Shown piece after piece: positions 8,773 to 49,247 of a stretch of DNA of 64,000 nucleotides (its first letter is position 1; each line of letters starts with the position of its first letter). The DNA is from an uncultured Gammaproteobacteria bacterium. GTDB lineage: Bacteria; Pseudomonadota; Gammaproteobacteria; SZUA-229. The position numbers and the translations under genes were made by a program. The DNA lies in NCBI GenBank assembly GCA_942492025.1, contig CALODJ010000012.1, positions 569,272-633,271 of the forward strand. Reading direction: 5' to 3'. The notes below the pieces were generated by a model. The model was given only the letters and a program-made list of their open reading frames with translations, was not told the DNA's origin and searched no databases.

Positions 8773-10446
8773 ATGTCCGAAAGTTTTGCCCAGTTATTTG
8801 AAGAAAGCCTGAATCAAACAGAAATGACAGCCGGTCAGGTTGTTATTGGCACCATCACCGATATTCGCGACGGTTATGTCATCGTTTCAGCAGGGCTTAA
8901 ATCCGAAGGTGTTATCCCGGATGATCAATTTAAAAACCTCAGCGGTGATCTCGAAGTCGCCATTGGCGACGATGTGGAAGTTGTTCTGGAAGCCGTCGAA
9001 GACGGTTTTGGAGAGACCCGTCTGTCACGCGAAAAAGCCAAGCGTGCCAAGGCCTGGAAGTCGCTCGAGACGTCCTATGAAACTGAAGAAATTATCACCG
9101 GTATCATTACCGGCAAAGTAAAAGGTGGCTTCACCGTCGAGCTGGGTGATATCCGTGCGTTCCTGCCTGGCTCACTGGTCGATGTGCGTCCGGTCAGAGA
9201 CACCTCATACCTCGAAGGTAAAGAGCTTGAGTTCAAGGTCATCAAGCTTGATCAGAAGCGCAATAATGTCGTGGTTTCACGTCGCGCCGTGGTCGAATCA
9301 GAATACAGTGCCGAGCGTGAAGCCTTGCTCAACACTATCGAAGAAGGCAAGCCCATCAAAGGCGTTGTCAAGAACCTCACTGATTACGGTGCGTTCCTCG
9401 ATCTGGGCGGTGTTGACGGTCTGTTGCACATCACAGACATGGCCTGGAAACGCGTGCGTCATCCCTCCGAAGTGGTCAACGTTGGTGATGAAATCAATGT
9501 CATGGTGCTCAAGTTCGACAAGGAGCGCAACCGCGTTTCTCTTGGTCTGAAGCAGCTCGATGAGGATCCATGGAGCGAAATTGCACGACGTTATCCGGAA
9601 GGTTCCAGACTGCACGGCAAGATCAGCAACATTACCGATTACGGCTGCTTTGTTGAAATTGAAGATGGTGTTGAAGGTCTGGTGCATGTGTCTGAGATGG
9701 ACTGGACCAACAAAAACATCAATCCAGCCAGCGTGGTCGCACTGGGTGATGAGGTCGAAGTCATGATCCTTGACATCGATGAAGAGCGCCGCCGAATTTC
9801 TCTGGGTATGAAACAATGCCAGCCTAATCCCTGGGATGAGTTCTCCGCAACACATAACAAGGGTGACAAGGTGAGTGGAAAGATCAAGTCGATTACCGAC
9901 TTTGGTATTTTTGTCGGACTTGACGGTGATATCGACGGGCTTGTGCACATGTCGGATATTTCCTGGGATGTCACCGGTGAAGAAGCCATCCGTAACTTCA
10001 AGAAAGGCGATACCATCGAAGCGGTTGTGCTATCTATAGATCCCGAACGTGAACGAATTTCACTGGGTATCAAGCAGATGGAACAGGACCCGGTATCTTC
10101 TTTTATGGGCGCTAACAAGAAGGGTTCGCTGGTAAAAGGTACGGTTATCTCCGTTGATGCCAAAGCTGCGATTGTAGATTTGGGTGATGGTGTCGAGGGC
10201 ACCTTACGCGCATCAGAACTATCACGCGACCGTGTTGAAGATGCATCGACTGTATTGAAAGTGGGTGATCAGGTTGAAGCCAAACTGATTGGTATTGATC
10301 GCAAGAGCCGGGCAATAAACCTTTCAGTCAAGGCAAAAGACTTCGATGAAGAAGCCGAAGCCATGAAAGACTACGCCAGCTCACAGCAGTCTGCCTCAAC
10401 TACACTGGGTGATTTGTTGAAGGAACAAATGGATTCCAACGACTAG
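8773..10446 (+). CDS. rpsA: 30S ribosomal protein S1
   Basis: Six S1 repeats. The start was chosen at [13 protein letters not shown]. The stop TAG at 10444-10446 directly abuts an IR1 repeat terminus. Confidence 0.92.
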
Positions 10447-16769: not shown

Positions 16770-17077
16770 AGCCCGTATTTCTCACCAGGCGGCGTGGAAT
16801 ACTGGTAAGGCATTGGTTATTTGGAGTGAAGCTCGGATGATTAGAAATACAGTGTGTTATTCAAGCATGCCTATCACGCTTCAGGCGGGTCTTGGTTTGC
16901 ATGAGATCGTAGGGTGCGCCGTGCGCACCGTGAATCTTCAGTGTGCTGGGCTGTTTCGGTGCGCACGGCGCACCCTACGGTCGCTTCACCCAAGCTATTG
17001 CTACGCTTTTCGCTCCAGAGCGGCGCTTACGAATACGAATCCTGCGCCTGTTCCCGTGATCCTGGTGAGAAATGCGG
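16770..17077. repeat. Large IR1-bounded element, about 308 bp, with a nested core palindrome (16909-16978)
   Basis: The termini are AGCCCGTATTTCTCACCAGG and CCTGGTGAGAAATGCGGG. The interior is homologous to the 41750-41995 element, apart from the inserted GTAGGGTGCGCC core. Confidence 0.85.
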
Positions 17078-36062: not shown

Positions 36063-36509
36063 GTGAGTATGATGCTGGCAGAAGAAGTTAAAAATTTTTT
36101 ACCCCATCGCTATCCCTTTCTGCTGGTTGACCGGGTGCTTGAATGCACACCGGGTGATACGCTGACAGCGATAAAGAACGTATCCATCAATGAGCCATAC
36201 TTTCTTGGGCACTTTCCTCAAAAAGCGATCATGCCGGGTGTGCTTATCATCGAGGCATTGGCACAGGCCACCGGTATCCTGGGTTTCAGGACGATGAGCG
36301 AGACACCCAGAGATGATCTGCTCTATATGCTTGTTGGTGTTGACAATGTCCGTTTCAAGCGACAGGTCATTCCGGGTGATCAGCTGATCCTCAAAGCCAA
36401 ACTGGAGAAACGATCCAGGATCATCTGGAAGTTTACCTGCGAAGCCAGCGTCGACGGTGAACTGGTGACTTCTGCCAGTATGTTATGTGCAGCAACCGAG
36501 AAGGAATAA
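36063..36509 (+). CDS. fabZ: 3-hydroxyacyl-ACP dehydratase
   Basis: 148 aa hot-dog fold (LPHRYPFLLVDRV, GHFP). Confidence 0.92.
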   Translation: MSMMLAEEVKNFLPHRYPFLLVDRVLECTPGDTLTAIKNVSINEPYFLGHFPQKAIMPGVLIIEALAQATGILGFRTMSETPRDDLLYMLVGVDNVRFKRQVIPGDQLILKAKLEKRSRIIWKFTCEASVDGELVTSASMLCAATEKE

Positions 36510-36513
36510 GCCT

Positions 36514-37284
36514 GTGATTCATGAGACCGCAATCATCGATGAATCGGCCGTGATCGCAAGTGATGCAGAAATTGGCCCCTACACTATCGTCGGAGCTGAT
36601 GTACACATTGGTTCTGGCACCATCCTGGGGCCACACGTGGTCCTCAAGGGCCCGACGCAGATTGGCAGAGACAATCGGATATTCCAGTTTGCATCGATTG
36701 GTGAAGATCCGCAGGATCTGAAGTATCAAGGCGAGCGATCAAGACTGGTCATTGGTGATCGCAATACTGTTCGAGAAGCTGTAACCATACATCGCGGTAC
36801 CGCTCAAGACAACAGTCTGACACAAATCGGCAATGACAACCTGTTTATGGCTTATGTGCATATTGCGCACGATTGTATTCTGGGTAACAACATCATTCTT
36901 GCCAACAACACCACACTCGCGGGTCATGTAATTGTTGAAGATTATGCGATTTTGGGAGGCTTTACCGCTGTTCACCAGTTTACCCGCCTGGGCGCACATT
37001 GCTTTACCGGTTTTGCCACCGCACTGGATCGCGACGTATTGCCGTATTTCACCGTTGCTGGTAACCGAGCCAGGGCCCGAGGCATCAATAAGGAGGGTCT
37101 GGTCAGAAAAGGGTTCAAACCCGAGACCATTCGTGCGCTGCAGGACACCTACAAAATTCTCGTGAAATCAAAAGGCACTTTAATAGAAAAACTCGAGCGC
37201 GTATCCGAGCTTGCAGCGATGCATAGCGAAGTCCAGCAGATCATCGATTTTCTGAACAAGAGCGAACGTGGCTGGGTTCGGTAA
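36514..37284 (+). CDS. lpxA: Acyl-ACP--UDP-N-acetylglucosamine O-acyltransferase
   Basis: The hexapeptide beta-helix IHETAIIDESAVI continues to the catalytic-His region VHIAHDC. The start was proposed at the GTG at 36514, which has an AAGGAA RBS; the tracked ATG ORF overlaps fabZ. Confidence 0.85.
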   Translation: MIHETAIIDESAVIASDAEIGPYTIVGADVHIGSGTILGPHVVLKGPTQIGRDNRIFQFASIGEDPQDLKYQGERSRLVIGDRNTVREAVTIHRGTAQDNSLTQIGNDNLFMAYVHIAHDCILGNNIILANNTTLAGHVIVEDYAILGGFTAVHQFTRLGAHCFTGFATALDRDVLPYFTVAGNRARARGINKEGLVRKGFKPETIRALQDTYKILVKSKGTLIEKLERVSELAAMHSEVQQIIDFLNKSERGWVR

Positions 37285-42010: not shown

Positions 42011-42307
42011 TTGGAAGAGTCGATCCACGTTTTGCTGCTCGTCATCGATTGTTACATTCCACAGGCACAGTCGCTAAAACAGAAACGCTCAGTGGTAAAG
42101 AGTCTGGTCGATCGCCTACGCGCCCGATTCAACGCCTCCGTGGCAGAAACCGGCTATTTGAATGAATGGCAGCGTGCTGTAATTGCTGTCAGCCTGGTGA
42201 GCAACAATAAACGCTACCTTCAACAGCAAAACGAGCTGATTCAGCAGCTGGTGATGGCGTCGAGCGGTAGCATTACCGTATCCGGCATCCAGCAGCACTG
42301 GCTTTGA
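42011..42307 (+). CDS. DUF503 (YlxP-like) family protein
   Basis: 98 aa with a pattern matching DUF503 (LxLxLHIPxAxSLKxKRxVVKSLxDRLRxRFNxSVAExG...WQRA). Confidence 0.55.
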   Translation: MEESIHVLLLVIDCYIPQAQSLKQKRSVVKSLVDRLRARFNASVAETGYLNEWQRAVIAVSLVSNNKRYLQQQNELIQQLVMASSGSITVSGIQQHWL

Positions 42308-42328
42308 ATACAGGCGACAAGAGACCAG

Positions 42329-42512
42329 CCCGCATTTCTCACCAGTGGGCGAGAGGATTAGGCAGAGAGTTGTCTGTGCATTGCGTATTTCGTTGATGGA
42401 ATAAAGCGTAGAAATCGTAGGGTGCGCCGTGCGCACCAAAGTCCGTAGAACAAGCGTGACAGTTGCTACGAGGTGCGCACGGCGCACCCTACCGCACTGG
42501 TGAGAAATGCGG
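42329..42512. repeat. Full type-A element: IR1 arms plus a core palindrome (42417-42491)
   Basis: CCCGCATTTCTCACCAGTG...GTATTTCGTTGATGGAATAAAGCGTAGAAATC GTAGGGTGCGCCGTGCGCACC...GGTGCGCACGGCGCACCCTACC GCACTGGTGAGAAATGCGGG. Confidence 0.9.
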
Positions 42513-42711
42513 GCTAGCGGTAGTCATATAACCAGAACGAGATGTAGTGTAATACAGTGATGCTGTGTAAAACTGGGCTTGCATTTATAGCCAGCTATCG
42601 GTTAATACCGGGATGCGGTCTGATCGAACAGGCGGTGATGGTTGTTTTCCGCCTCTATAATGCGGCTTTCTACGCAAATGAACGCAACGGGTAATGACTT
42701 AAAAGGCAGCC

Positions 42712-43779
42712 ATGAATAACGATTTACAGAATTACCAGCTGGTCGAGACCCGGCTGCAGGAAAAAATGGACAACGGTACCACACGCTGCAACCTGTGCCT
42801 GTGGCGCTGCAAGATTGGCCATGGTCAGCGTGGATTCTGCCAGGCCCATGTCAACCGCAATGGTACCCTGTATAACCTTTCCTACGGCATTCTCTCCTCG
42901 ATAGACATAGACCCGATTGAAGGCAAGCCGGTCAGACACTTTCGCCCGGGTACCCGGGTCATGTCAGTCGGCAGCTACGGCTGCAGTTTTCGCTGTGGTG
43001 GCTGCCATAATCTTGAGATTTCATGGGGCGTACGTGCACTGGATGAACTGGCCCGTGGTGAATCCACGGAAGTCTGGGTCACCCCTGAAAGCCTGATCGA
43101 GAGCGCGCAGCGAGCCGGTGTGCAGGGAATAGCCTTCACCTATTCCGAGCCGGCGGTCTGGCTGGAATATGTCATCGATGTCTGTGAACTGGCACACCAG
43201 GCTGGCCTGTACACCGTGTACGTCTCCAACAGTTTTGTCACCGATGAGGCATTGCAGCTGGTGGCGCCGCATCTGGATGTTATGTGCTCGGATATCAAAA
43301 GCATGCGCGATGACTTCTACAGGGAAATCTGCCGTCCTGCCACGGTGGATCAGGTGTTGCATGCCATAAAGACGGCACACGATCTGGGTGTTCACGTCGA
43401 GACGAGAACCAACATCATTCCTGGCAAGAACGATAACCCGGCAGAGCACTTCGCGATAGCCAGCTGGGTGCATGATAATCTTGGCGCTGACAGCCCGTGG
43501 CATATCACCCGGTTTTTTCCGGCGTACCAGTTGATGGATATTCCACCCACGCCTGATGAAGCCCTGTTCGCAGCCGCTGAACAGGGCAGGCGTGCCGGCC
43601 TCGAGCATGTTTACGTGTATAATGACAAGGGTTGCGACTGTGCCAAGGAAAACCGCCCGGTCGAGTTTTATCTGAACGCCCAGGCGGAAAATGTGCACCA
43701 GGTGAAGAAATGCTCGGCCAGCTGCTGTGGCGATGAAGGCATCTTATTGAAGAAATACGAAGAGAAATCCAATCTGTAG
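42712..43779 (+). CDS. Radical SAM enzyme, AmmeMemoRadiSam-system (AmrS)-like, PFL-activase related
   Basis: 355 aa. It has an N-terminal Cys cluster (TRCNLCLWRCKIGHGQRGFC), a Cx3Cx2C motif in GCSFRCGGCHN and a C-terminal HITRFFPAYQLMDIPPTP-like motif characteristic of this family. Confidence 0.6.
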   Translation: MNNDLQNYQLVETRLQEKMDNGTTRCNLCLWRCKIGHGQRGFCQAHVNRNGTLYNLSYGILSSIDIDPIEGKPVRHFRPGTRVMSVGSYGCSFRCGGCHNLEISWGVRALDELARGESTEVWVTPESLIESAQRAGVQGIAFTYSEPAVWLEYVIDVCELAHQAGLYTVYVSNSFVTDEALQLVAPHLDVMCSDIKSMRDDFYREICRPATVDQVLHAIKTAHDLGVHVETRTNIIPGKNDNPAEHFAIASWVHDNLGADSPWHITRFFPAYQLMDIPPTPDEALFAAAEQGRRAGLEHVYVYNDKGCDCAKENRPVEFYLNAQAENVHQVKKCSASCCGDEGILLKKYEEKSNL

Positions 43780-43793
43780 ACGTTGAGGTTGTC

Positions 43794-44078
43794 ATGACAA
43801 GAATGGTTCAGTGTGTGGTACTAAATCAAGAGGCCGAAGGGCTGGATGCGCCGCCACACCCCGGTGAGCTGGGTGTGCGCATTTACGAAAATGTTTCGAA
43901 GGAAGGCTGGAAACAATGGCTCGAGCGCCTGACAACGATTATCAATGAGAACGGCCTGAATACCGCAGATCCTAAAAATATCGAGCTGATCGAAAGGCAT
44001 ATGGTCGGCTTTTTCTTTCAGGAAGGCGATTATGGCCAGGCCCCGGCAGGCTTCCAGGCGGGTGGCGGTAAAAAGTAA
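43794..44078 (+). CDS. yggX: Fe(2+)-trafficking / oxidative-damage protection protein YggX
   Basis: 94 aa, MTRMVQCVVLNQEAEGLDAPPHPGELGVRIYENVSKEGWKQW, aligning closely to E. coli YggX. Confidence 0.85.
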   Translation: MTRMVQCVVLNQEAEGLDAPPHPGELGVRIYENVSKEGWKQWLERLTTIINENGLNTADPKNIELIERHMVGFFFQEGDYGQAPAGFQAGGGKK

Positions 44079-44116: not shown

Positions 44117-45421
44117 TTAAGCCGATGCCAGCCTGAAAATCGGTACGGTGACAAAATTCAGTTTTGCGTGCGCTGTTCTGAGCGCCTCGGTGGCTTCATC
44201 CGACGTCTCGGCCTGCGCGAAGATGAATCCAAGATACTGGTTACCCTCGGGCAGGGGTATCAACTCATGGCCCTCACTGATCGTGATATCGATTTTTTCG
44301 ATATGGGGCACTTTCTGAGCAGCCAGTATACCTTCGACGCGTCGCAGTAGTCCTGCTCGCCGGATCGGTATCATCATCACGCCGCGGCTTTGTTCGATCG
44401 GCGTGGGCTTCATCGGCTGCCCAATGGCCAGTGACACAGTCAGCTGCTCCAGGCTCTTGTTCGTGCCGCTATCCAGCATGCGGGCGCAATCACCGCCGAT
44501 CGTACGTGAGGCGACCTCGAGTATCCAGGCATCGCTTGCGTTGAGGCGAAGCTCGGCATGCACTGGCCCGGTTCTCAAGCCAAAAGCCGTGCAAGCCTGC
44601 TGTACACGCTGTTTGACCCGGTTCAGTGAAGCAACATCGAGCTGGGACGGCGTGACGTAAATGGTTTCTTCGAAGAAAGGGCCGACTAGAGCATCCGGTT
44701 TATCGAATACAGCCAGTGTGTGCAATTCGCCCTGGTGTAAATAGCCTTCATAGGCAATCTCGATGCCGTCGATGTAGTCTTCGACCAGTACATGGCTGCG
44801 TTCAAACGCGTCCCGTGATTCCGCGATGATGTTGCCTACGCGTTCACAGGCAGTCCTGAATTCGTCTTCGTTGTTGGCGCGTATCACACCGCGGCTGGCC
44901 GACATATTGACCGGTTTGATCACGCAGGGCCACGGCAGGCCGGCCATTTGCCTGTCCAGCGGCCTTTTGATATCAATCAGACAATGACGCGGCACAGGGC
45001 ATCCGGACCGCATCAGGTGCGCTCGCGCGAGGTCCTTGCGGCGTGTAAGCCGAGCGGCTTCTGGCGGGTTGTGGGGCAGGCCAAGCCGGTTGGCTGCGAG
45101 CGCTGCCAGTTCGACGGTGCTGTCATCACTACCGATGATGCCGGCAAAAGGATCCAGTCTGGCCGCATGCAGTATGGCGCTCAACGCCGACGCATGATCA
45201 TCCAGATCAATATTGAGACCCTGGTTGACCTCTGTTGTCAGTGAGTGCTCGCCCCGGGAGGCAATCAGTACTCGCACCCCCATCTGCTGTGCAGCGCCAA
45301 TGTAAGGCGCTATGCGGTAGCTGTTGGGTTGGGATATTAAAAGCAGGCGTCTACTGATTGCTCTGGTACTGTCAGGCTGTTTATTGGGGTTCGTACTGCA
45401 TAGCCCCACAGACAGAAACAT
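44117..45421 (-). CDS. ATP-grasp domain protein (carboxylate-amine ligase-like), function unknown
   Basis: About 434 aa with a central ATP-grasp region (PWPCVIKP...SRGV, EDYIDGIE, ELRL). The start is uncertain, since the tracked ATG lies inside a hairpin; MGVRVLIAS is an alternative. Confidence 0.55.
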   Translation of the reverse strand: MFLSVGLCSTNPNKQPDSTRAISRRLLLISQPNSYRIAPYIGAAQQMGVRVLIASRGEHSLTTEVNQGLNIDLDDHASALSAILHAARLDPFAGIIGSDDSTVELAALAANRLGLPHNPPEAARLTRRKDLARAHLMRSGCPVPRHCLIDIKRPLDRQMAGLPWPCVIKPVNMSASRGVIRANNEDEFRTACERVGNIIAESRDAFERSHVLVEDYIDGIEIAYEGYLHQGELHTLAVFDKPDALVGPFFEETIYVTPSQLDVASLNRVKQRVQQACTAFGLRTGPVHAELRLNASDAWILEVASRTIGGDCARMLDSGTNKSLEQLTVSLAIGQPMKPTPIEQSRGVMMIPIRRAGLLRRVEGILAAQKVPHIEKIDITISEGHELIPLPEGNQYLGFIFAQAETSDEATEALRTAHAKLNFVTVPIFRLASA

Positions 45422-45528
45422 GGCCTGTTTCTGCCTGTGGGAAACCGGTTAAAAACAACGTGTTTTCGGCCCGGCCTCAAATGCGCAGGATATTGTCGAC
45501 TGTGGCGCCCCCAGGTGAGAATTACGGG

Positions 45529-45906
45529 CTAGCCACAACCGCCGCCTGCTGAGCCACAGGCACCGCATACACCCGATCCTCCGGTGTTGGCGAATACGTT
45601 CTTGAATACAAAACTCGCGTTTGCACCCTGGGTCTGGTAGTCGATTTCGACACCTTCAAGGTAGCTGAGCGCAACGGCGTCGACATAGACCTTTAAACCC
45701 TCTTGCTCTAGCATGCAGTCGTATTCGTTCGGCTGGTCGACAAATGTCATGCCGTAACTCATGCCACCGCAGCCACCGCCTGAAACGAATATACGAACAC
45801 CGTTGACGCCATCCTCGTTTTCAGTCAATGCCAGCAACTGCTTGACGGCCTCGGGAGAGACATTGATCTGATCGGATAATTGATTGTTGAACTGTATGTC
45901 TGACAT
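45529..45906 (-). CDS. HesB/IscA/ErpA-family iron-sulfur cluster insertion protein with an unusual Gly/Cys-rich C-terminus
   Basis: 126 aa. The start is MSDIQFNNQL. It has the conserved GGGCGGMSYGMTF and a C-terminal VCGACGSAGGGCG in place of the usual CGCGESF. Confidence 0.65.
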   Translation of the reverse strand: MSDIQFNNQLSDQINVSPEAVKQLLALTENEDGVNGVRIFVSGGGCGGMSYGMTFVDQPNEYDCMLEQEGLKVYVDAVALSYLEGVEIDYQTQGANASFVFKNVFANTGGSGVCGACGSAGGGCG

Positions 45907-46066: not shown

Positions 46067-46876
46067 ATGTCTGATCCCAATATTCATCCCACGGCCATCG
46101 TTTCGTCCCGAGCAAAACTTGCCAATGGCGTTCAGGTCGGGCCCTATGCGGTTATTCACGATCATGTCGAGATTGGCGCCAACACCACGCTTGGTCCACA
46201 TGTCGTAATCTGCGACTACGTACGTCTGGGCGCCGGCAACCGGGTGCACGCACACGCTGTGATCGGCGATCTGCCTCAGGACATATCATTTGATCCGGCG
46301 ACTGAAACCTGGGTCGAGATCGGTGATGCCAATACACTCAGAGAAGGCGTTACCATCCATCGGGCGACTTCACCATCGACAACAACCAGCGTGGGTTCCA
46401 ACGTGTATATGATGGCTTACAGCCATATCGGTCATGACTGTCGAGTAGGTGATGGTGTCATAATCACGATCAACACCAATGTGGGGGGGCATGTCGAGAT
46501 AGGCGATAAAGCTGTGCTCGGCGGCAGTGTCGCTGTGCACCAGTTTTGCCGTATCGGTCAGTTTGCTATGGTCGCTGGCCTGATCGCGGTCAGAAAAGAC
46601 GTGTTACCCTACACCATGATCGCCGGGGATCCGGCACGACATTACCGTCTCAACACGGTCGGATGTCGTCGCGCCGGTATCACGGGTGAGCGCTATCGCC
46701 GCCTGGAGCGGGCCTATCGAGCACTTCGGTCAGGCAACAAATCACTGCAGGGAATAGCTGAGAGCGAGGAAGTCGCACATTTACGTGCATGGCTGGCAAC
46801 AGACTCGAAACGTGGTCTGAGCGGATTTCTGCGCGAACAGAAACTTAGCCCGGATATCGCACGAAGGCGGATATGA
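46067..46876 (+). CDS. Second LpxA-family acyltransferase (paralog of UDP-GlcNAc O-acyltransferase)
   Basis: 269 aa with hexapeptide repeats throughout and the catalytic His context SHIGHDC, plus a C-terminal helical domain. It is clearly distinct from the lpxA at 36514-37284. Confidence 0.7.
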   Translation: MSDPNIHPTAIVSSRAKLANGVQVGPYAVIHDHVEIGANTTLGPHVVICDYVRLGAGNRVHAHAVIGDLPQDISFDPATETWVEIGDANTLREGVTIHRATSPSTTTSVGSNVYMMAYSHIGHDCRVGDGVIITINTNVGGHVEIGDKAVLGGSVAVHQFCRIGQFAMVAGLIAVRKDVLPYTMIAGDPARHYRLNTVGCRRAGITGERYRRLERAYRALRSGNKSLQGIAESEEVAHLRAWLATDSKRGLSGFLREQKLSPDIARRRI

Positions 46877-47660: not shown

Positions 47661-48731
47661 TCAATTACAGTCGATTGGCGGGCACTGCGCCGTCAGTTGC
47701 GGTCGTGCCGTATGACTCAACTGCTGTTCGGAGTCACGAATATTGCTGTCATCGGGGGATAATCGGTAGGCGCATTGAAGAGATTGCTGAGCCTGTTCAA
47801 CACAACCAGCTGCGTGCAGGGCGTAGGCAAGATTATTCCAGATCAGCGGTGTGGCCGGACTCAGCTTTGCCGCATTCACGAGCGCTGACACGGCTTCTGC
47901 ATGATGACCGGATTCATATTCGATGTTGCCAAGCGTTATCCAGGCGCTGGGGCTTTCAGGCCATTGTACGGTGGCGGCCCGGTAGGCCTCAATCGCAAGC
48001 GCGTTCAATCCGGTTTGCTCAAAAGCATAGGTTGTTTTCAGGTAGGTGGATAAACTGGCTGTCGCCGGTATCTTGCCCACAGGTACAATAACCAGGCCCC
48101 ATTTGTCGGCGCGCTGCCAGGTGTTTTCAAATGTGGCGAATGTTGTCACCCAGCGTTTTGTCGTACCTGAACGCAGCAATATTTCATTATTGGCCTTGTT
48201 GTAACCAATGACGACCGCGTAATGCCAACGCGGCCACCAGTCAAATCCGAGGTTTTGCAGTACCAGCACAGGATTACCGGCAGCGATTTCCGCCAGCAGG
48301 TCAGGCAGTGTGGGATTCAGCGGATAAGGCAGCATGCCATAGCGCCGTGAGTTTGCGACCAGTTCGACTTGCAGACTACCCTGGCGTTGCGGGATGTATA
48401 TCTGCGATGAAAGCACATCGGGCGTCACATCAATGTGGTGTGATTGCAGTACGGTTGCCAACGCAGCAGGGCCGCATTGATGCCGGGTCTGGGGAAAGAA
48501 GGGTGTGTCGGATAATTCGATTGCGGTTGGCAGTGGCTGATGGTGATCATCCAGTACGGGTCTGCTCTTGTGTGTGCCAGTGCAACCGGCCAAGCAGAGC
48601 AGGCAGGCGAGTAAGGGGGCAACACAGAGCCCTAGGAGTCTGCGCGGTAGAAAGTATCCCTGCTGCAAAAGCGCCACAGCGGTCCATTTTTCTGTTCTTT
48701 TTCGTTGCGTAGTGCCCACTATGCGCCTCAA
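47661..48731 (-). CDS. PA2778-like lipoprotein: C39-like cysteine peptidase domain plus TPR repeats
   Basis: 356 aa with a lipobox (LLCLAGC), a papain/C39-like Cys region (QCGPAALATVLQ) and C-terminal TPR helices. Confidence 0.5.
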   Translation of the reverse strand: MRRIVGTTQRKRTEKWTAVALLQQGYFLPRRLLGLCVAPLLACLLCLAGCTGTHKSRPVLDDHHQPLPTAIELSDTPFFPQTRHQCGPAALATVLQSHHIDVTPDVLSSQIYIPQRQGSLQVELVANSRRYGMLPYPLNPTLPDLLAEIAAGNPVLVLQNLGFDWWPRWHYAVVIGYNKANNEILLRSGTTKRWVTTFATFENTWQRADKWGLVIVPVGKIPATASLSTYLKTTYAFEQTGLNALAIEAYRAATVQWPESPSAWITLGNIEYESGHHAEAVSALVNAAKLSPATPLIWNNLAYALHAAGCVEQAQQSLQCAYRLSPDDSNIRDSEQQLSHTARPQLTAQCPPIDCN

Positions 48732-48792
48732 AAGAACAGAAAACTGTCCTCACCGTGCCACTTTTTCGCTACGGGTATTTCTGCCGCGCAGA

Positions 48793-48835
48793 CTCCTAGC
48801 CCGCATTTCTCACCAGGGGGCCAGAAATGCGGATT
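48793..48835. repeat. Solitary IR1 hairpin
   Basis: TAGCCCGCATTTCTCACC aggggg CCAGAAATGCGG, an IR1 terminus folded back on itself. Confidence 0.7.
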
Positions 48836-48860
48836 TAAGGCTACCATGCATTGTTATTGA

Positions 48861-49247
48861 TCAGTTTACCGGTTTAATGAACGGGAAGATGTCAGTTGCT
48901 CCAATCACATCGGTGATCACGAACACGATAAAAATGATGAGCAAGACACCGAGGATATCGCCACCTGCGGGTAACTCGCCAATCTGTTGATTTAACGTTG
49001 CTATTTCATCGTCTGTCATCAAATTGACGCGGTGGGTAAGGGTGTCTGGTTCGACACCAAGGGAGCGTAATTGCTGCTTGAGTTCTGAGCGCTCGATGGT
49101 TTCGATCAACTGTGCTCTCGCACTGGTTTTTTGTGCATTGAAAATAACTTGATCATTGCCTACCAGGGCCGCCTCTACATGGTTGAATGACAGGCTCATC
49201 AGGGCAAGTGACAGAACGATATTGAAGCATTTTTGGGCCAATTTCAT
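48861..49247 (-). CDS. PA2779-like small protein with a signal peptide and a C-terminal TM anchor
   Basis: 128 aa, immediately upstream of the PA2778-like peptidase and co-directional with it. Confidence 0.45.
   Translation of the reverse strand: MKLAQKCFNIVLSLALMSLSFNHVEAALVGNDQVIFNAQKTSARAQLIETIERSELKQQLRSLGVEPDTLTHRVNLMTDDEIATLNQQIGELPAGGDILGVLLIIFIVFVITDVIGATDIFPFIKPVN

What the first reader, a model, noticed from the sequence alone, without database searches (positions are those of the whole stretch)
42712..43779. Orphan AmmeMemoRadiSam-type radical SAM enzyme without AMMECR1 or Memo partners in the neighbourhood
The N-terminal Cys-rich cap, the GCSFRCGGCHN motif and the C-terminal RFFPAYQLMD-PTP signature resemble the AmrS family. 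AmrS is normally encoded with AmmeMemo partner proteins, and its function is unknown. Here it sits with DUF503 upstream and YggX downstream instead. Either the partners are elsewhere or this lineage uses AmrS in a different context. YggX coupling has not been described for this family.
Basis: inference. Interest (0 to 1): 0.5.

Follow-up and report, generated by a model that had tools for sequence, protein, structure and literature searches.

The report
YggX-coupled orphan AmrS-like radical SAM enzyme
This gene encodes a divergent radical SAM enzyme that lacks the usual AMMECR1/Memo partners nearby and, across many sulfur- and methane-oxidising Gammaproteobacteria, is always followed by the iron-handling gene yggX; its substrate is unknown, and the main value of the finding is a possible client enzyme for the poorly understood YggX.

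Summary
ORF 42712-43779 (+), 355 aa, passes NCBIfam TIGR04337 (AmrS), but only just: 233.6 bits against a cutoff of 220, covering profile positions 2-287 of 349. AmrS domains genuinely fused to AMMECR1/Memo score 387-538 bits. PflA and NrdG models fail badly.

DUF503 lies upstream and YggX 14 nt downstream. AMMECR1/Memo HMMs found nothing in the 64-kb window or 88 related loci. The same HMMs found partners beside 15 of about 37 distant AmrS-like genes.

The protein belongs to a discrete clade, 76-92% identical across at least four gammaproteobacterial orders. Its C-terminal Cys motif is rewired to CxC-X23-CX3CC.

In all 80 genome loci yggX follows on the same strand. The median gap is 14 nt, with overlap in 9 of 81 junctions, while the outer flanks change. 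A convergent operon (A-type Fe-S carrier plus L-amino-acid ligase) usually follows. DUF503 is incidental.

A sister clade at 65% identity lacks yggX but sits convergent to mutY, which is yggX's operon partner in E. coli.

Best reading: a partner-independent AmrS-like enzyme co-transcribed with YggX, which probably supports its Fe-S clusters. The substrate is unknown, and genome-wide absence of AMMECR1/Memo could not be tested. This is a new variant of a known kind, of moderate interest.

The parts
42712..43779 (+). AmrS-like radical SAM enzyme, 355 aa, with a PflA-type core. It belongs to a YggX-linked gammaproteobacterial clade.
   Evidence: - TIGR04337: 233.6 bits against cutoff 220, profile positions 2-287 of 349.
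- PF04055.
- AF2 model: pLDDT 87, pTM 0.86.
- Best PDB fold match: PFL-AE 3cb8, TM 0.80 on the target.
- 76-92% identity in 80 genomes.
42787..42840 (+). N-terminal four-Cys site (C26, C29, C33, C43). It is a family-wide auxiliary metal site, either Zn or Fe-S.
   Evidence: - Invariant in 122 clade sequences (99-100%) and in all 134 non-clade family sequences.
- Invariant in alignment A1.
42982..43005 (+). Radical SAM CX3CX2C motif (C91, C95, C98), which ligates the SAM-binding [4Fe-4S] cluster.
   Evidence: - Invariant in the family and aligned to the PflA cluster cysteines.
43633..43728 (+). Clade-specific C-terminal Cys tail, C308-x-C310 ... C334-x3-C338-C339. It replaces the canonical AmrS CxxC...CxxC.
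   Evidence: - 100% conserved in the clade.
- Canonical and fusion AmrS have CxxC...CxxC at the same place.
- TIGR04337 does not align this region.
- AF2 confidence is below 50 here.
43794..44078 (+). yggX (Fe(2+)-trafficking / oxidative-damage protection protein, 94 aa), co-transcribed with the radical SAM gene.
   Evidence: - NF003817: 106.4 bits against cutoff 74; PF04362.
- 14-nt gap in the window.
- Same strand and immediately downstream in all 80 genome loci.
- Median gap 14 nt, with overlap in 9 of 81 junctions.
44117..45421 (-). L-amino-acid-ligase-type ATP-grasp enzyme, the second gene of a convergent operon. It is usually conserved next to yggX.
   Evidence: - PF18130, PF13535 and PF18603.
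- PDB 3vot (BL00235 L-amino acid ligase), E = 1.9e-34.
- Present within 10 kb in 66 of 80 loci.
- Directly adjacent in 45 of 68 loci.
45529..45906 (-). A-type Fe-S carrier (ErpA/IscA/SufA-like, 125 aa), the first gene of the convergent operon with the ligase.
   Evidence: - TIGR00049: 79.9 bits against cutoff 58.8. It is below the ErpA, IscA and SufA equivalog cutoffs.
- PF01521.
- Gene call of 125 aa.
- It co-travels with the ATP-grasp gene.
42011..42307 (+). DUF503 (YlxP-like) gene. It is an incidental upstream neighbour and not part of the conserved unit.
   Evidence: - PF04456, 89 bits.
- Found only in 9 close loci (L006-L010, L012, L047 and the same-species L001/L002).
42326..42516 (.). 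Miniature mobile element of about 190 bp with 18-nt terminal inverted repeats, inserted in the DUF503-rSAM spacer.
   Evidence: - The TIR GCCCGCATTTCTCACCAG is found 15 times in the window against 0.05 expected.
- The empty site is seen in same-species L001; the site is filled in L002 and in the window.
42656..42661 (+). Perfect TATAAT hexamer 50 nt upstream of the ATG. It is a candidate -10 box for an rSAM-yggX transcript, inferred only.
   Evidence: - Read directly from the sequence.
- The region is identical in L001, L002 and the window.
- The consensus promoter scan, which also requires a -35 box, did not call it.

Best explanation
The gene encodes a stand-alone, divergent member of the AmrS / PflA-like radical SAM lineage. 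It does not work within an AMMECR1-Memo cassette.

**Shown.**
- It has a PFL-activase-type partial TIM-barrel core with the CX3CX2C site for the SAM-cleaving [4Fe-4S] cluster.
- It has the family-wide N-terminal Cys4 site and a clade-specific C-terminal Cys5 site. That makes up to three metal centres.
- It forms a two-gene operon with yggX. The stop-to-start gap has a median of 14 nt, and the genes overlap in some genomes.
- The pair has stayed intact across at least four gammaproteobacterial orders while the outer flanks turned over.

**Inferred.**
- The enzyme reductively cleaves SAM and abstracts a hydrogen atom from an unidentified substrate, either a protein or peptide loop (as in PFL-AE) or a small molecule.
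- YggX is co-produced to keep the enzyme's oxygen-labile clusters metallated or protected in these aerobic or microaerobic sulfur and methane oxidisers.
- The nearby A-type carrier adds to the same Fe-S supply theme.
For: **Family and fold.**
- TIGR04337 is by far the best model (233.6 bits, against 46.5 for PflA).
- PFL-AE is the best structural match, TM 0.80 on the target.
- The family-invariant residues C26, C29, C33, C43, H76, C91, C95, C98, K196, E230 and C334 are all retained.

**A separate clade.**
- The 50%-clustered search gives one full-length representative at 65% identity, then a drop to 47% or less. Alignments outside the clade end at about residue 304-310.
- TIGR04337 scores are 222-234 bits for the clade, against 387-538 for AMMECR1/Memo fusions and 344 for a reductase fusion.
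- In the NJ tree the clade lies in a 41-leaf subtree holding none of the 9 AMMECR1/Memo fusions.
- The C-terminal Cys spacing is rewired, and C192 is clade-specific.

**No partners nearby.**
- There are 0 AMMECR1/Memo hits in 1.24 Mb, comprising the window plus 85 loci, and 0 in the three further core-clade loci L096-L098.
- The same HMMs detect partners beside 15 of about 37 distant AmrS-like genes and in held-out fusions.

**The YggX operon.**
- yggX is directly downstream on the same strand in 80 of 80 genome loci.
- The gap statistics come from 81 junctions.
- There are 19 different families upstream of the rSAM gene and 21 downstream of yggX.
- The complete genome of the Gigantopelta symbiont keeps the block despite a completely different upstream region and nearby IS elements.

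**Strong constraint.**
- The rSAM protein stays 76-92% identical, while neighbouring TPMT drops to about 50% and the ATP-grasp protein to 55-81%.
Against: - Genome-wide absence of AMMECR1/Memo was not testable, so the enzyme could still serve unlinked partners.
- All AmrS-family invariant residues are retained, which argues for chemistry like that of canonical AmrS.
- The supportive role proposed for YggX rests on adjacency plus the published, still debated, role of YggX in Fe-S protection. There is no direct evidence of an interaction.
- The sister clade at 65% identity has the same Cys tail and no adjacent yggX, so co-transcription is not obligatory for this type of enzyme.
- No Fur, IscR, OxyR or SoxS box is enriched upstream.
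- Only the 80 closest of 329 genome matches were examined.
Confidence: 0.55

Rival explanations
1. It is a canonical AmrS whose AMMECR1 (AmrA) and Memo (AmrB) partners are encoded elsewhere in the genome. The yggX adjacency says nothing about its function.
For: - It passes the curated TIGR04337 cutoff, and PGAP names relatives as AmmeMemoRadiSam enzymes.
- It keeps the N-terminal Cys4 site, a C-terminal Cys site and all family-invariant residues.
- Some Gammaproteobacteria (Acidihalobacter) do carry amrS-amrB-amrA clusters (PMC9062700).
Against: - Its score is marginal and the match is truncated, compared with true fusion AmrS domains.
- Partners are adjacent in 0 of 96 core and sister loci, against 15 of about 37 in distant AmrS-like loci.
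- It falls in a subtree without fusions.
- A different gene, yggX, is the invariant partner.
Confidence: 0.2
2. The rSAM-yggX adjacency is a historical remnant of an ancestral insertion next to the mutY-yggX locus. It has been kept by inertia, with no functional coupling between the two proteins.
For: - The sister clade (65% identity) sits convergent to mutY in 5 of 6 loci with downstream sequence.
- mutY-yggX is a classical operon in E. coli (own knowledge). Both clades therefore touch the same ancestral module.
- The sister clade functions without an adjacent yggX.
Against: - The outer flanks turned over into 19 and 21 families while the junction never broke in 80 species-level genomes from at least four orders.
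- The intergenic gap is minimal, and the genes overlap by 8-11 nt in 9 loci, which is typical of selected co-translation.
- yggX lies on the rSAM strand, not on the mutY strand, so a simple remnant of mutY->yggX would also require an inversion.
Confidence: 0.2
3. It is a glycyl-radical-enzyme activase of the PflA or NrdG type.
For: - JGI annotates relatives as 'pyruvate formate lyase activating enzyme'.
- The nearest solved structure is PFL-AE.
Against: - The PflA model scores 46.5 bits against a cutoff of 231.75, NrdG scores 31.7 against 131, and every other activase model falls far below its cutoff.
- The N- and C-terminal Cys domains are typical of AmrS and absent from PflA.
- None of the large ORFs of the window is a glycyl radical enzyme.
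Confidence: 0.02

Closest known systems
AmmeMemoRadiSam system radical SAM enzyme AmrS (NCBIfam TIGR04337; function unknown)
   Same: - It is the best-scoring family and the score is above the cutoff.
- The three-part architecture is shared: an N-terminal Cys4 site, a CX3CX2C core and a C-terminal Cys site.
- All family-invariant residues are shared.
   Different: - The score is 234 bits, against 387-538 for AmrS fused to AMMECR1/Memo, and the last 60 or so profile positions are unmatched.
- The C-terminal motif is CxC-X23-CX3CC instead of CxxC...CxxC, and C192 replaces a conserved Asn.
- No AMMECR1/Memo gene lies within 10 kb in any of the 88 core-clade loci.
- The invariant partner is yggX.
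Pyruvate formate-lyase activating enzyme PflA (PDB 3cb8, 3c8f)
   Same: - It is the closest solved fold: TM 0.80 on the target, 17-18% identity.
- It is the only PDB relative found by sequence (E = 4e-5).
- The cluster motif and the SAM-binding core are shared.
   Different: - PflA lacks the N-terminal Cys4 domain and the C-terminal Cys tail.
- The HMM score is far below the PflA cutoff.
- There is no glycyl radical enzyme nearby.
mutY-yggX operon of E. coli and Salmonella (YggX as a protector of Fe-S proteins; own knowledge, cf. Thorgersen & Downs 2008 as cited in PMC8593673)
   Same: - yggX is again the distal gene of an operon whose proximal gene encodes a [4Fe-4S] protein.
- The sister clade of the rSAM sits next to mutY itself.
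   Different: - The proximal gene here is a radical SAM enzyme rather than the DNA glycosylase.
- mutY is absent from every core-clade locus.
LipA-NfuA / BioB type radical SAM enzymes with sacrificial auxiliary clusters (own knowledge)
   Same: A multi-cluster radical SAM enzyme is encoded next to dedicated iron and Fe-S delivery proteins (YggX and an A-type carrier).
   Different: - There is no sequence-family membership. Lipoyl synthase is only a distant fold hit.
- Sulfur insertion or cluster sacrifice is pure speculation here.

Membership tests
AmmeMemoRadiSam system radical SAM enzyme (AmrS, TIGR04337) | The whole-protein HMM score reaches the curated cutoff (220 bits). | tested here: met
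   - 233.6 bits, E = 2.8e-69, but only profile positions 2-287 of 349 are matched.
- Clade member P0121 scores 221.6 bits.
- AMMECR1/Memo-fused AmrS score 387-538 bits over positions 1-336.
AmmeMemoRadiSam system radical SAM enzyme (AmrS, TIGR04337) | Radical SAM CX3CX2C motif plus the N-terminal CX2CX3CX9C site. | tested here: met
   C26, C29, C33, C43, C91, C95 and C98 are invariant in the clade (122 sequences) and in 134 other family sequences.
AmmeMemoRadiSam system radical SAM enzyme (AmrS, TIGR04337) | C-terminal CxxC...CxxC module. | tested here: inconclusive
   - Four or five Cys occupy the same location, but with CxC-X23-CX3CC spacing.
- The region is not aligned by the HMM and not modelled by AF2.
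AmmeMemoRadiSam system radical SAM enzyme (AmrS, TIGR04337) | Encoded in a cassette or fusion with AMMECR1 (TIGR04335) and Memo (TIGR04336). | tested here: not met
   - 0 hits at E <= 10 in six-frame translations of the window plus 85 loci.
- 0 hits in L096-L105.
- The controls were positive: held-out fusions and 15 distant loci.
AmmeMemoRadiSam system radical SAM enzyme (AmrS, TIGR04337) | AMMECR1 and Memo homologues are present somewhere in the same genome. | not testable with these tools
   - Only +-10 kb around each hit can be read.
Glycyl-radical enzyme activases (PflA TIGR02493, NrdG TIGR02495/TIGR02491, TIGR02494) | The HMM score reaches the curated cutoff. | tested here: not met
   The scores are 46.5 against 231.75, 31.7 against 131.15, 19.9 against 126.1 and 36.3 against 174.35.
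Glycyl-radical enzyme activases (PflA TIGR02493, NrdG TIGR02495/TIGR02491, TIGR02494) | A cognate glycyl radical enzyme gene (pfl, nrdD etc.) lies nearby. | tested here: not met
   All ORFs of 550 aa or more in the window were identified by Pfam or gene calls as S1, TrkA, GlnD, an ABC transporter, malic enzyme/PTA, BamA, PreP and an RND pump. The rest of the genome was not testable.
YggX / oxidative damage protection protein (NF003817, PF04362), for the downstream gene | Equivalog HMM above the cutoff, full length. | tested here: met
   - 106.4 bits against 74, residues 1-79 on profile positions 1-79 of 90.
- PF04362, 105 bits.
DUF503 (PF04456), for the upstream gene | Pfam gathering score. 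| tested here: met
   89 bits against 22.4. The linkage to the rSAM gene is not conserved beyond close relatives.

The most novel reading that the evidence does not exclude
The rSAM-YggX pair, possibly together with the convergent A-type carrier and L-amino-acid ligase operon, is a dedicated functional system. Two versions are possible:
1. YggX is the specific iron donor or repair factor for an auxiliary cluster that this enzyme consumes or loses during turnover, as NfuA does for LipA.
2. YggX itself is the protein substrate of a PFL-activase-like enzyme.

Either version would give YggX its first defined client. It would also reveal what chemistry the AmrS fold performs when freed from AMMECR1/Memo.
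Probability: 0.12. Interest if true: 0.65.

Novelty: new variant of a known kind. Interest (0 to 1): 0.4.

Why it matters
Two widely conserved proteins meet here, and the biochemical role of neither is settled.
- **AmrS.** It is the radical SAM component of the AMMECR1-Memo system, whose eukaryotic relatives are linked to disease.
- **YggX.** Its proposed iron-trafficking role remains debated.

A clade that keeps the AmrS catalytic residues, has no AMMECR1/Memo gene nearby, and is always co-transcribed with yggX offers a simpler system for two questions: what the AmrS fold does on its own, and whether YggX serves a specific Fe-S enzyme.

There is also a practical point. The TIGR04337 cutoff lets annotation pipelines label several hundred gammaproteobacterial genes as 'AmmeMemoRadiSam system' components, although no such system is nearby.

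Tried and rejected
1. **Glycyl-radical activase reading.** Rejected on HMM scores and on the absence of a glycyl radical enzyme in the window.
2. **DUF503 as a functional partner.** Rejected. It is present only in the nearest relatives and is separated from the rSAM gene by a 404-bp spacer with a polymorphic mobile-element insertion.
3. **Conserved regulator sites upstream of the rSAM gene.** Fur, IscR type 1 and 2, OxyR and SoxS consensus matches were no better than in shuffled sequence. The k-mer search found only promoter-like motifs specific to one subclade, at about -80 and -40.
4. **Consensus promoter and terminator scan of 41.7-46.1 kb.** Nothing was found above the shuffle expectation.
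5. **Literature.** 'AmmeMemoRadiSam' gives six incidental mentions. 'YggX' together with 'radical SAM' gives four irrelevant papers. Burroughs et al. 2019 (JBC, PMC6664185), which treats the Memo/AMMECR1/rSAM contexts, is not held. Burroughs & Aravind 2014 only links AMMECR1 to a predicted RNA base modification.
6. **My greedy ORF caller.** It produced spurious long ORFs in GC-rich loci: the largest 'upstream family' looks spurious, and ORF lists for L016 and L025 show heavily overlapping calls. The upstream family count is therefore approximate. I relied instead on the deposited gene calls.
7. **Genome-wide presence or absence of AMMECR1/Memo.** No available tool reads whole genomes. A protein search seeded with AMMECR1 was judged unlikely to be informative, because only the best 120 hits are shown, so it was not run.
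8. **Testing an rSAM-YggX complex by structure prediction.** Not possible, because only monomer prediction of window sequences is offered.
Full report
**1. The observation**

The ORF at 42712-43779 (+) is real: 355 aa, ATG start, AAGG ribosome-binding site.

- **Family.** NCBIfam TIGR04337 (AmmeMemoRadiSam system radical SAM enzyme) is the top family at 233.6 bits, against a curated cutoff of 220. PflA follows at 46.5 bits (cutoff 231.75), and the NrdG models at 31.7 and 19.9 bits. Pfam sees only PF04055.
- **Neighbours.** The upstream gene (42011-42307) is DUF503. The downstream gene (43794-44078, 14 nt after the stop codon) is an equivalog-level YggX.
- **Source.** The identical protein occurs in two MAG assemblies, GCA_049668745.1 and GCA_049665425.1.
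- **Setting.** The window is ordinary core genome: aroA, rpsA, lapB, glnD, dapE and the bamA-skp-lpxD-fabZ-lpxA cluster. No glycyl radical enzyme is present.

**2. No AMMECR1 or Memo nearby, with controls**

A search against 1.84 billion representative proteins returned natural fusions of AmrS with AMMECR1 and Memo domains, which I verified with Pfam and NCBIfam. I built AMMECR1 and Memo HMMs from those domains.

- The HMMs found nothing, even at E <= 10, in six-frame translations of the window plus 85 related loci, 1.24 Mb in total.
- They recover held-out fusions at E values of 1e-50 to 1e-85.
- In a metagenome sample of distant AmrS-like loci, they find AMMECR1 and/or Memo directly beside 15 of about 37 genes.

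The negative result for this clade is therefore meaningful at neighbourhood scale. Genome-wide absence could not be tested.

**3. A fringe member of the family and a discrete clade**

- **HMM scores.** Proteins genuinely fused to AMMECR1/Memo score 387-538 bits on TIGR04337 over profile positions 1-336, and a reductase-fused one scores 344. The window protein and its relative P0121 score 234 and 222 bits over positions 2-287 only.
- **Identity gap.** In the 50%-clustered library the clade collapses to one full-length representative at 65% identity. The next relatives are at 46-47%, and the rest are at 45% or less. Their alignments stop near residue 304-310.
- **Tree.** An NJ tree of 148 family sequences, rooted on E. 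coli PflA (sequence recalled from memory and consistent), places the clade in a 41-leaf subtree. None of the nine Amme/Memo fusions falls in that subtree. The tree has no support values, so this is indicative only.
- **Cysteines.**
  - The N-terminal C26/C29/C33/C43 and the radical SAM C91/C95/C98 are universal in the family.
  - Canonical proteins end in CxxC...CxxC, whereas the clade has C308-x-C310 ... C334-x3-C338-C339. All of these are 100% conserved in the clade.
  - C192 is clade-specific (Asn in canonical AmrS). C207 is invariant in the clade and variable elsewhere.
- **Structure.** AlphaFold2 gives a confident core (pLDDT 87, pTM 0.86) and an unmodelled Cys tail at residues 306-355. 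The nearest solved fold is the PFL activating enzyme, TM 0.80 on the target. No AmrS-family structure exists in the PDB by sequence search.

**4. Being an 'orphan' is common at this edge of the model**

Other proteins that pass TIGR04337 occur in varied contexts.

| Protein | Context |
|---|---|
| P0125 | ThiF/ThiS/cysteine desulfurase/NifU/methyltransferase cluster |
| P0126, P0128 | No partner gene on short contigs (2.5 and 3.1 kb) |
| P0129, P0245 | Alone |
| P0131 | Downstream of two sulfatases |
| P0133 | Next to a LigB-family gene |

**5. The real signal is yggX**

A scan of one genome per GTDB species found 329 relatives, and the best 80 were fetched (76-92% identity). By their record titles they come from Thiotrichales, Thiogranum (Chromatiales), Thiohalobacterales, Methylococcales and unclassified Gammaproteobacteria.

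- **Invariant junction.** In all 80 loci yggX lies immediately downstream on the same strand. Over 81 junctions the stop-to-start distance has a median of 14 nt, and the genes overlap by 8-11 nt in nine.
- **Changing flanks.** There are about 19 families upstream of the rSAM gene and 21 downstream of yggX. The upstream count is approximate because of ORF-calling noise in GC-rich loci.
- **Complete genome.** The Gigantopelta symbiont has leuA/asnC/purU-like genes upstream and IS elements nearby. It still keeps rSAM-yggX, with stop and start overlapping.
- **DUF503.** It accompanies the gene only in the closest relatives. In the window it is separated by a 404-bp spacer containing a mobile element of about 190 bp that is absent from a same-species MAG. 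It is incidental.
- **Constraint.** The rSAM protein is the most conserved gene of the neighbourhood. It stays at 76-92% identity, while TPMT falls to about 50% and the ATP-grasp protein to 55-81%. This indicates strong purifying selection.

**6. A wider conserved block**

Convergent to rSAM-yggX lies a two-gene operon.
- The first gene encodes an A-type Fe-S carrier. It passes the general TIGR00049 model and falls below the ErpA, IscA and SufA equivalog cutoffs.
- The second encodes an ATP-grasp enzyme related to L-amino-acid ligases (PDB 3vot, E = 1.9e-34).

This operon is found within 10 kb in 66 of 80 loci and is directly adjacent in 45 of 68. Other genes are sometimes inserted between it and yggX. 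Its association is strong but not absolute, unlike that of yggX.

**7. The sister clade and mutY**

P0121-type proteins share 65% identity and the same CxC...CX3CC tail. I sampled them from metagenomes (L099-L105) and one assembly (L089).
- They have no yggX nearby, even with relaxed search thresholds, and no AMMECR1/Memo.
- In five of the six loci with downstream sequence, the convergent neighbour is MutY (TIGR01084, 362-371 bits against a cutoff of 286.5), followed by an AsmA-like gene.
- mutY is absent from all core-clade loci.

From established knowledge, mutY and yggX form an operon in E. coli and Salmonella, and MutY is itself a [4Fe-4S] protein. The rSAM lineage is thus tied to both halves of that module. 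This result cuts two ways:
- It pushes the association back before the split between the two clades.
- It also allows a purely historical origin for the adjacency.

**8. Mechanism**

*Shown:* a PflA-type radical SAM core, up to three Cys-ligated metal sites, and an operon with yggX.

*Inferred:* SAM cleavage and hydrogen-atom abstraction from an unknown substrate. YggX is co-produced to keep the enzyme's oxygen-sensitive clusters loaded or protected in aerobic or microaerobic chemolithotrophs and methanotrophs. The neighbouring A-type carrier fits the same Fe-S supply theme. No Fur, IscR, OxyR or SoxS site supports a specific regulon.

*Rivals:*
- Partners are encoded elsewhere in the genome (0.2).
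- The adjacency is inherited without functional coupling (0.2).
- It is a glycyl-radical activase (0.02).

*Most novel reading not excluded:* YggX is the dedicated iron donor for a sacrificial auxiliary cluster, or is the enzyme's substrate (0.12).

**9. Comparison, novelty and verdict**

The protein works like, and descends from, the AmrS/PflA-like lineage. It fails the defining contextual feature of the AmmeMemoRadiSam system, so I do not file it as a component of that system. It is better described as a YggX-linked AmrS-like subfamily.

I found no description of this pairing. The canonical system itself has only computational predictions:
- a predicted RNA base modification for AMMECR1 (PMC4075521);
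- links to nucleotide-base and isoprenoid modification in Burroughs et al. 2019, which I recall from memory because the paper is not held.

Verdict: a new variant of a known kind, with interest of about 0.4. It is a solid, reproducible genomic association that gives a handle on YggX and on AmrS chemistry. However, the substrate is unknown, and uncharacterised radical SAM subfamilies are common.

Noticed in passing
window 42326-42516; also TIR pairs at 16771/17079, 41751/41992, 51155/51343 and 52235/52421, and solo ends at 10446, 45529, 48799, 61573 and 63917: A family of miniature mobile elements of about 170-310 bp carries 18-nt terminal inverted repeats (GCCCGCATTTCTCACCAG). There are 15 TIR matches in 64 kb against 0.05 expected. 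The copy upstream of the rSAM gene is missing (empty site) in same-species MAG L001 and present in L002, so it is a recent insertion polymorphism.
   Followed up: partly
window 36487-37284 (+) and 46067-46876 (+): Two genes within 10 kb both pass the LpxA equivalog model NF003657 (367 and 297 bits, cutoff 226). The second copy, about 40% identical to the first, sits outside the lpxD-fabZ-lpxA cluster and is found only in the closer relatives (L006-L012).
   Followed up: partly
L100-L104 (for example L100 1806-2879 -, L103 7696-8745 -): In the sister clade of the rSAM (65% identity, same Cys tail), the conserved convergent neighbour is mutY, followed by an asmA-like gene. No yggX is nearby. A LysR-type regulator lies upstream in three of the loci.
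   Followed up: yes
window 44117-45906 (-); L096 11404-13097; L097 13984-15723: An operon of an A-type Fe-S carrier followed by an L-amino-acid-ligase-type ATP-grasp enzyme is conserved across the clade, convergent to yggX. I know of no described reason for an Fe-S carrier to be co-transcribed with a dipeptide-ligase-like enzyme.
   Followed up: partly
P0226 (952 aa): An AmrS-family domain (344 bits on TIGR04337) is fused to a CysJ-like flavodoxin/FAD/NADPH reductase. This is a built-in electron donor for the radical SAM cluster.
   Followed up: no
P0151 (797 aa). P0168, P0208 and P0260 have similar lengths and split matches but were not scanned.: In P0151 the AmrS-like radical SAM domain is interrupted by an intein with a LAGLIDADG homing endonuclease, shortly after the cluster motif.
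   Followed up: no
L086 616-11211 (context of P0125, the nearest outgroup at 46% identity): An AmrS-like enzyme is embedded in a cluster with two MerB-like genes, ThiF, ThiS, a cysteine desulfurase, NifU_N, DJ-1, a PP-loop ATPase, two methyltransferases and an aminotransferase. It looks like a biosynthetic cluster for a sulfur-containing metabolite.
   Followed up: no
L095 6001-7897 (P0133) and L094 1351-7059 (P0131): Other AmrS-like genes sit directly upstream of a LigB-family (PF02900) gene instead of Memo, or directly downstream of two sulfatase genes. These are further non-canonical contexts for proteins that pass TIGR04337.
   Followed up: no
L097/L098 9597-9935 (+); a similar ORF in L007: In a few core-clade genomes a SaoD/DsrE-family sulfur-relay protein (NF040913, 179 bits) is encoded 7-65 bp upstream of the rSAM gene, on the same strand.
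   Followed up: partly
window 47661-49247 (-): A PA2778-family C39 cysteine peptidase with TPR repeats (NF033920, 339 bits) is paired with a PA2779-family protein (NF033919). This two-gene module is conserved and uncharacterised.
   Followed up: no
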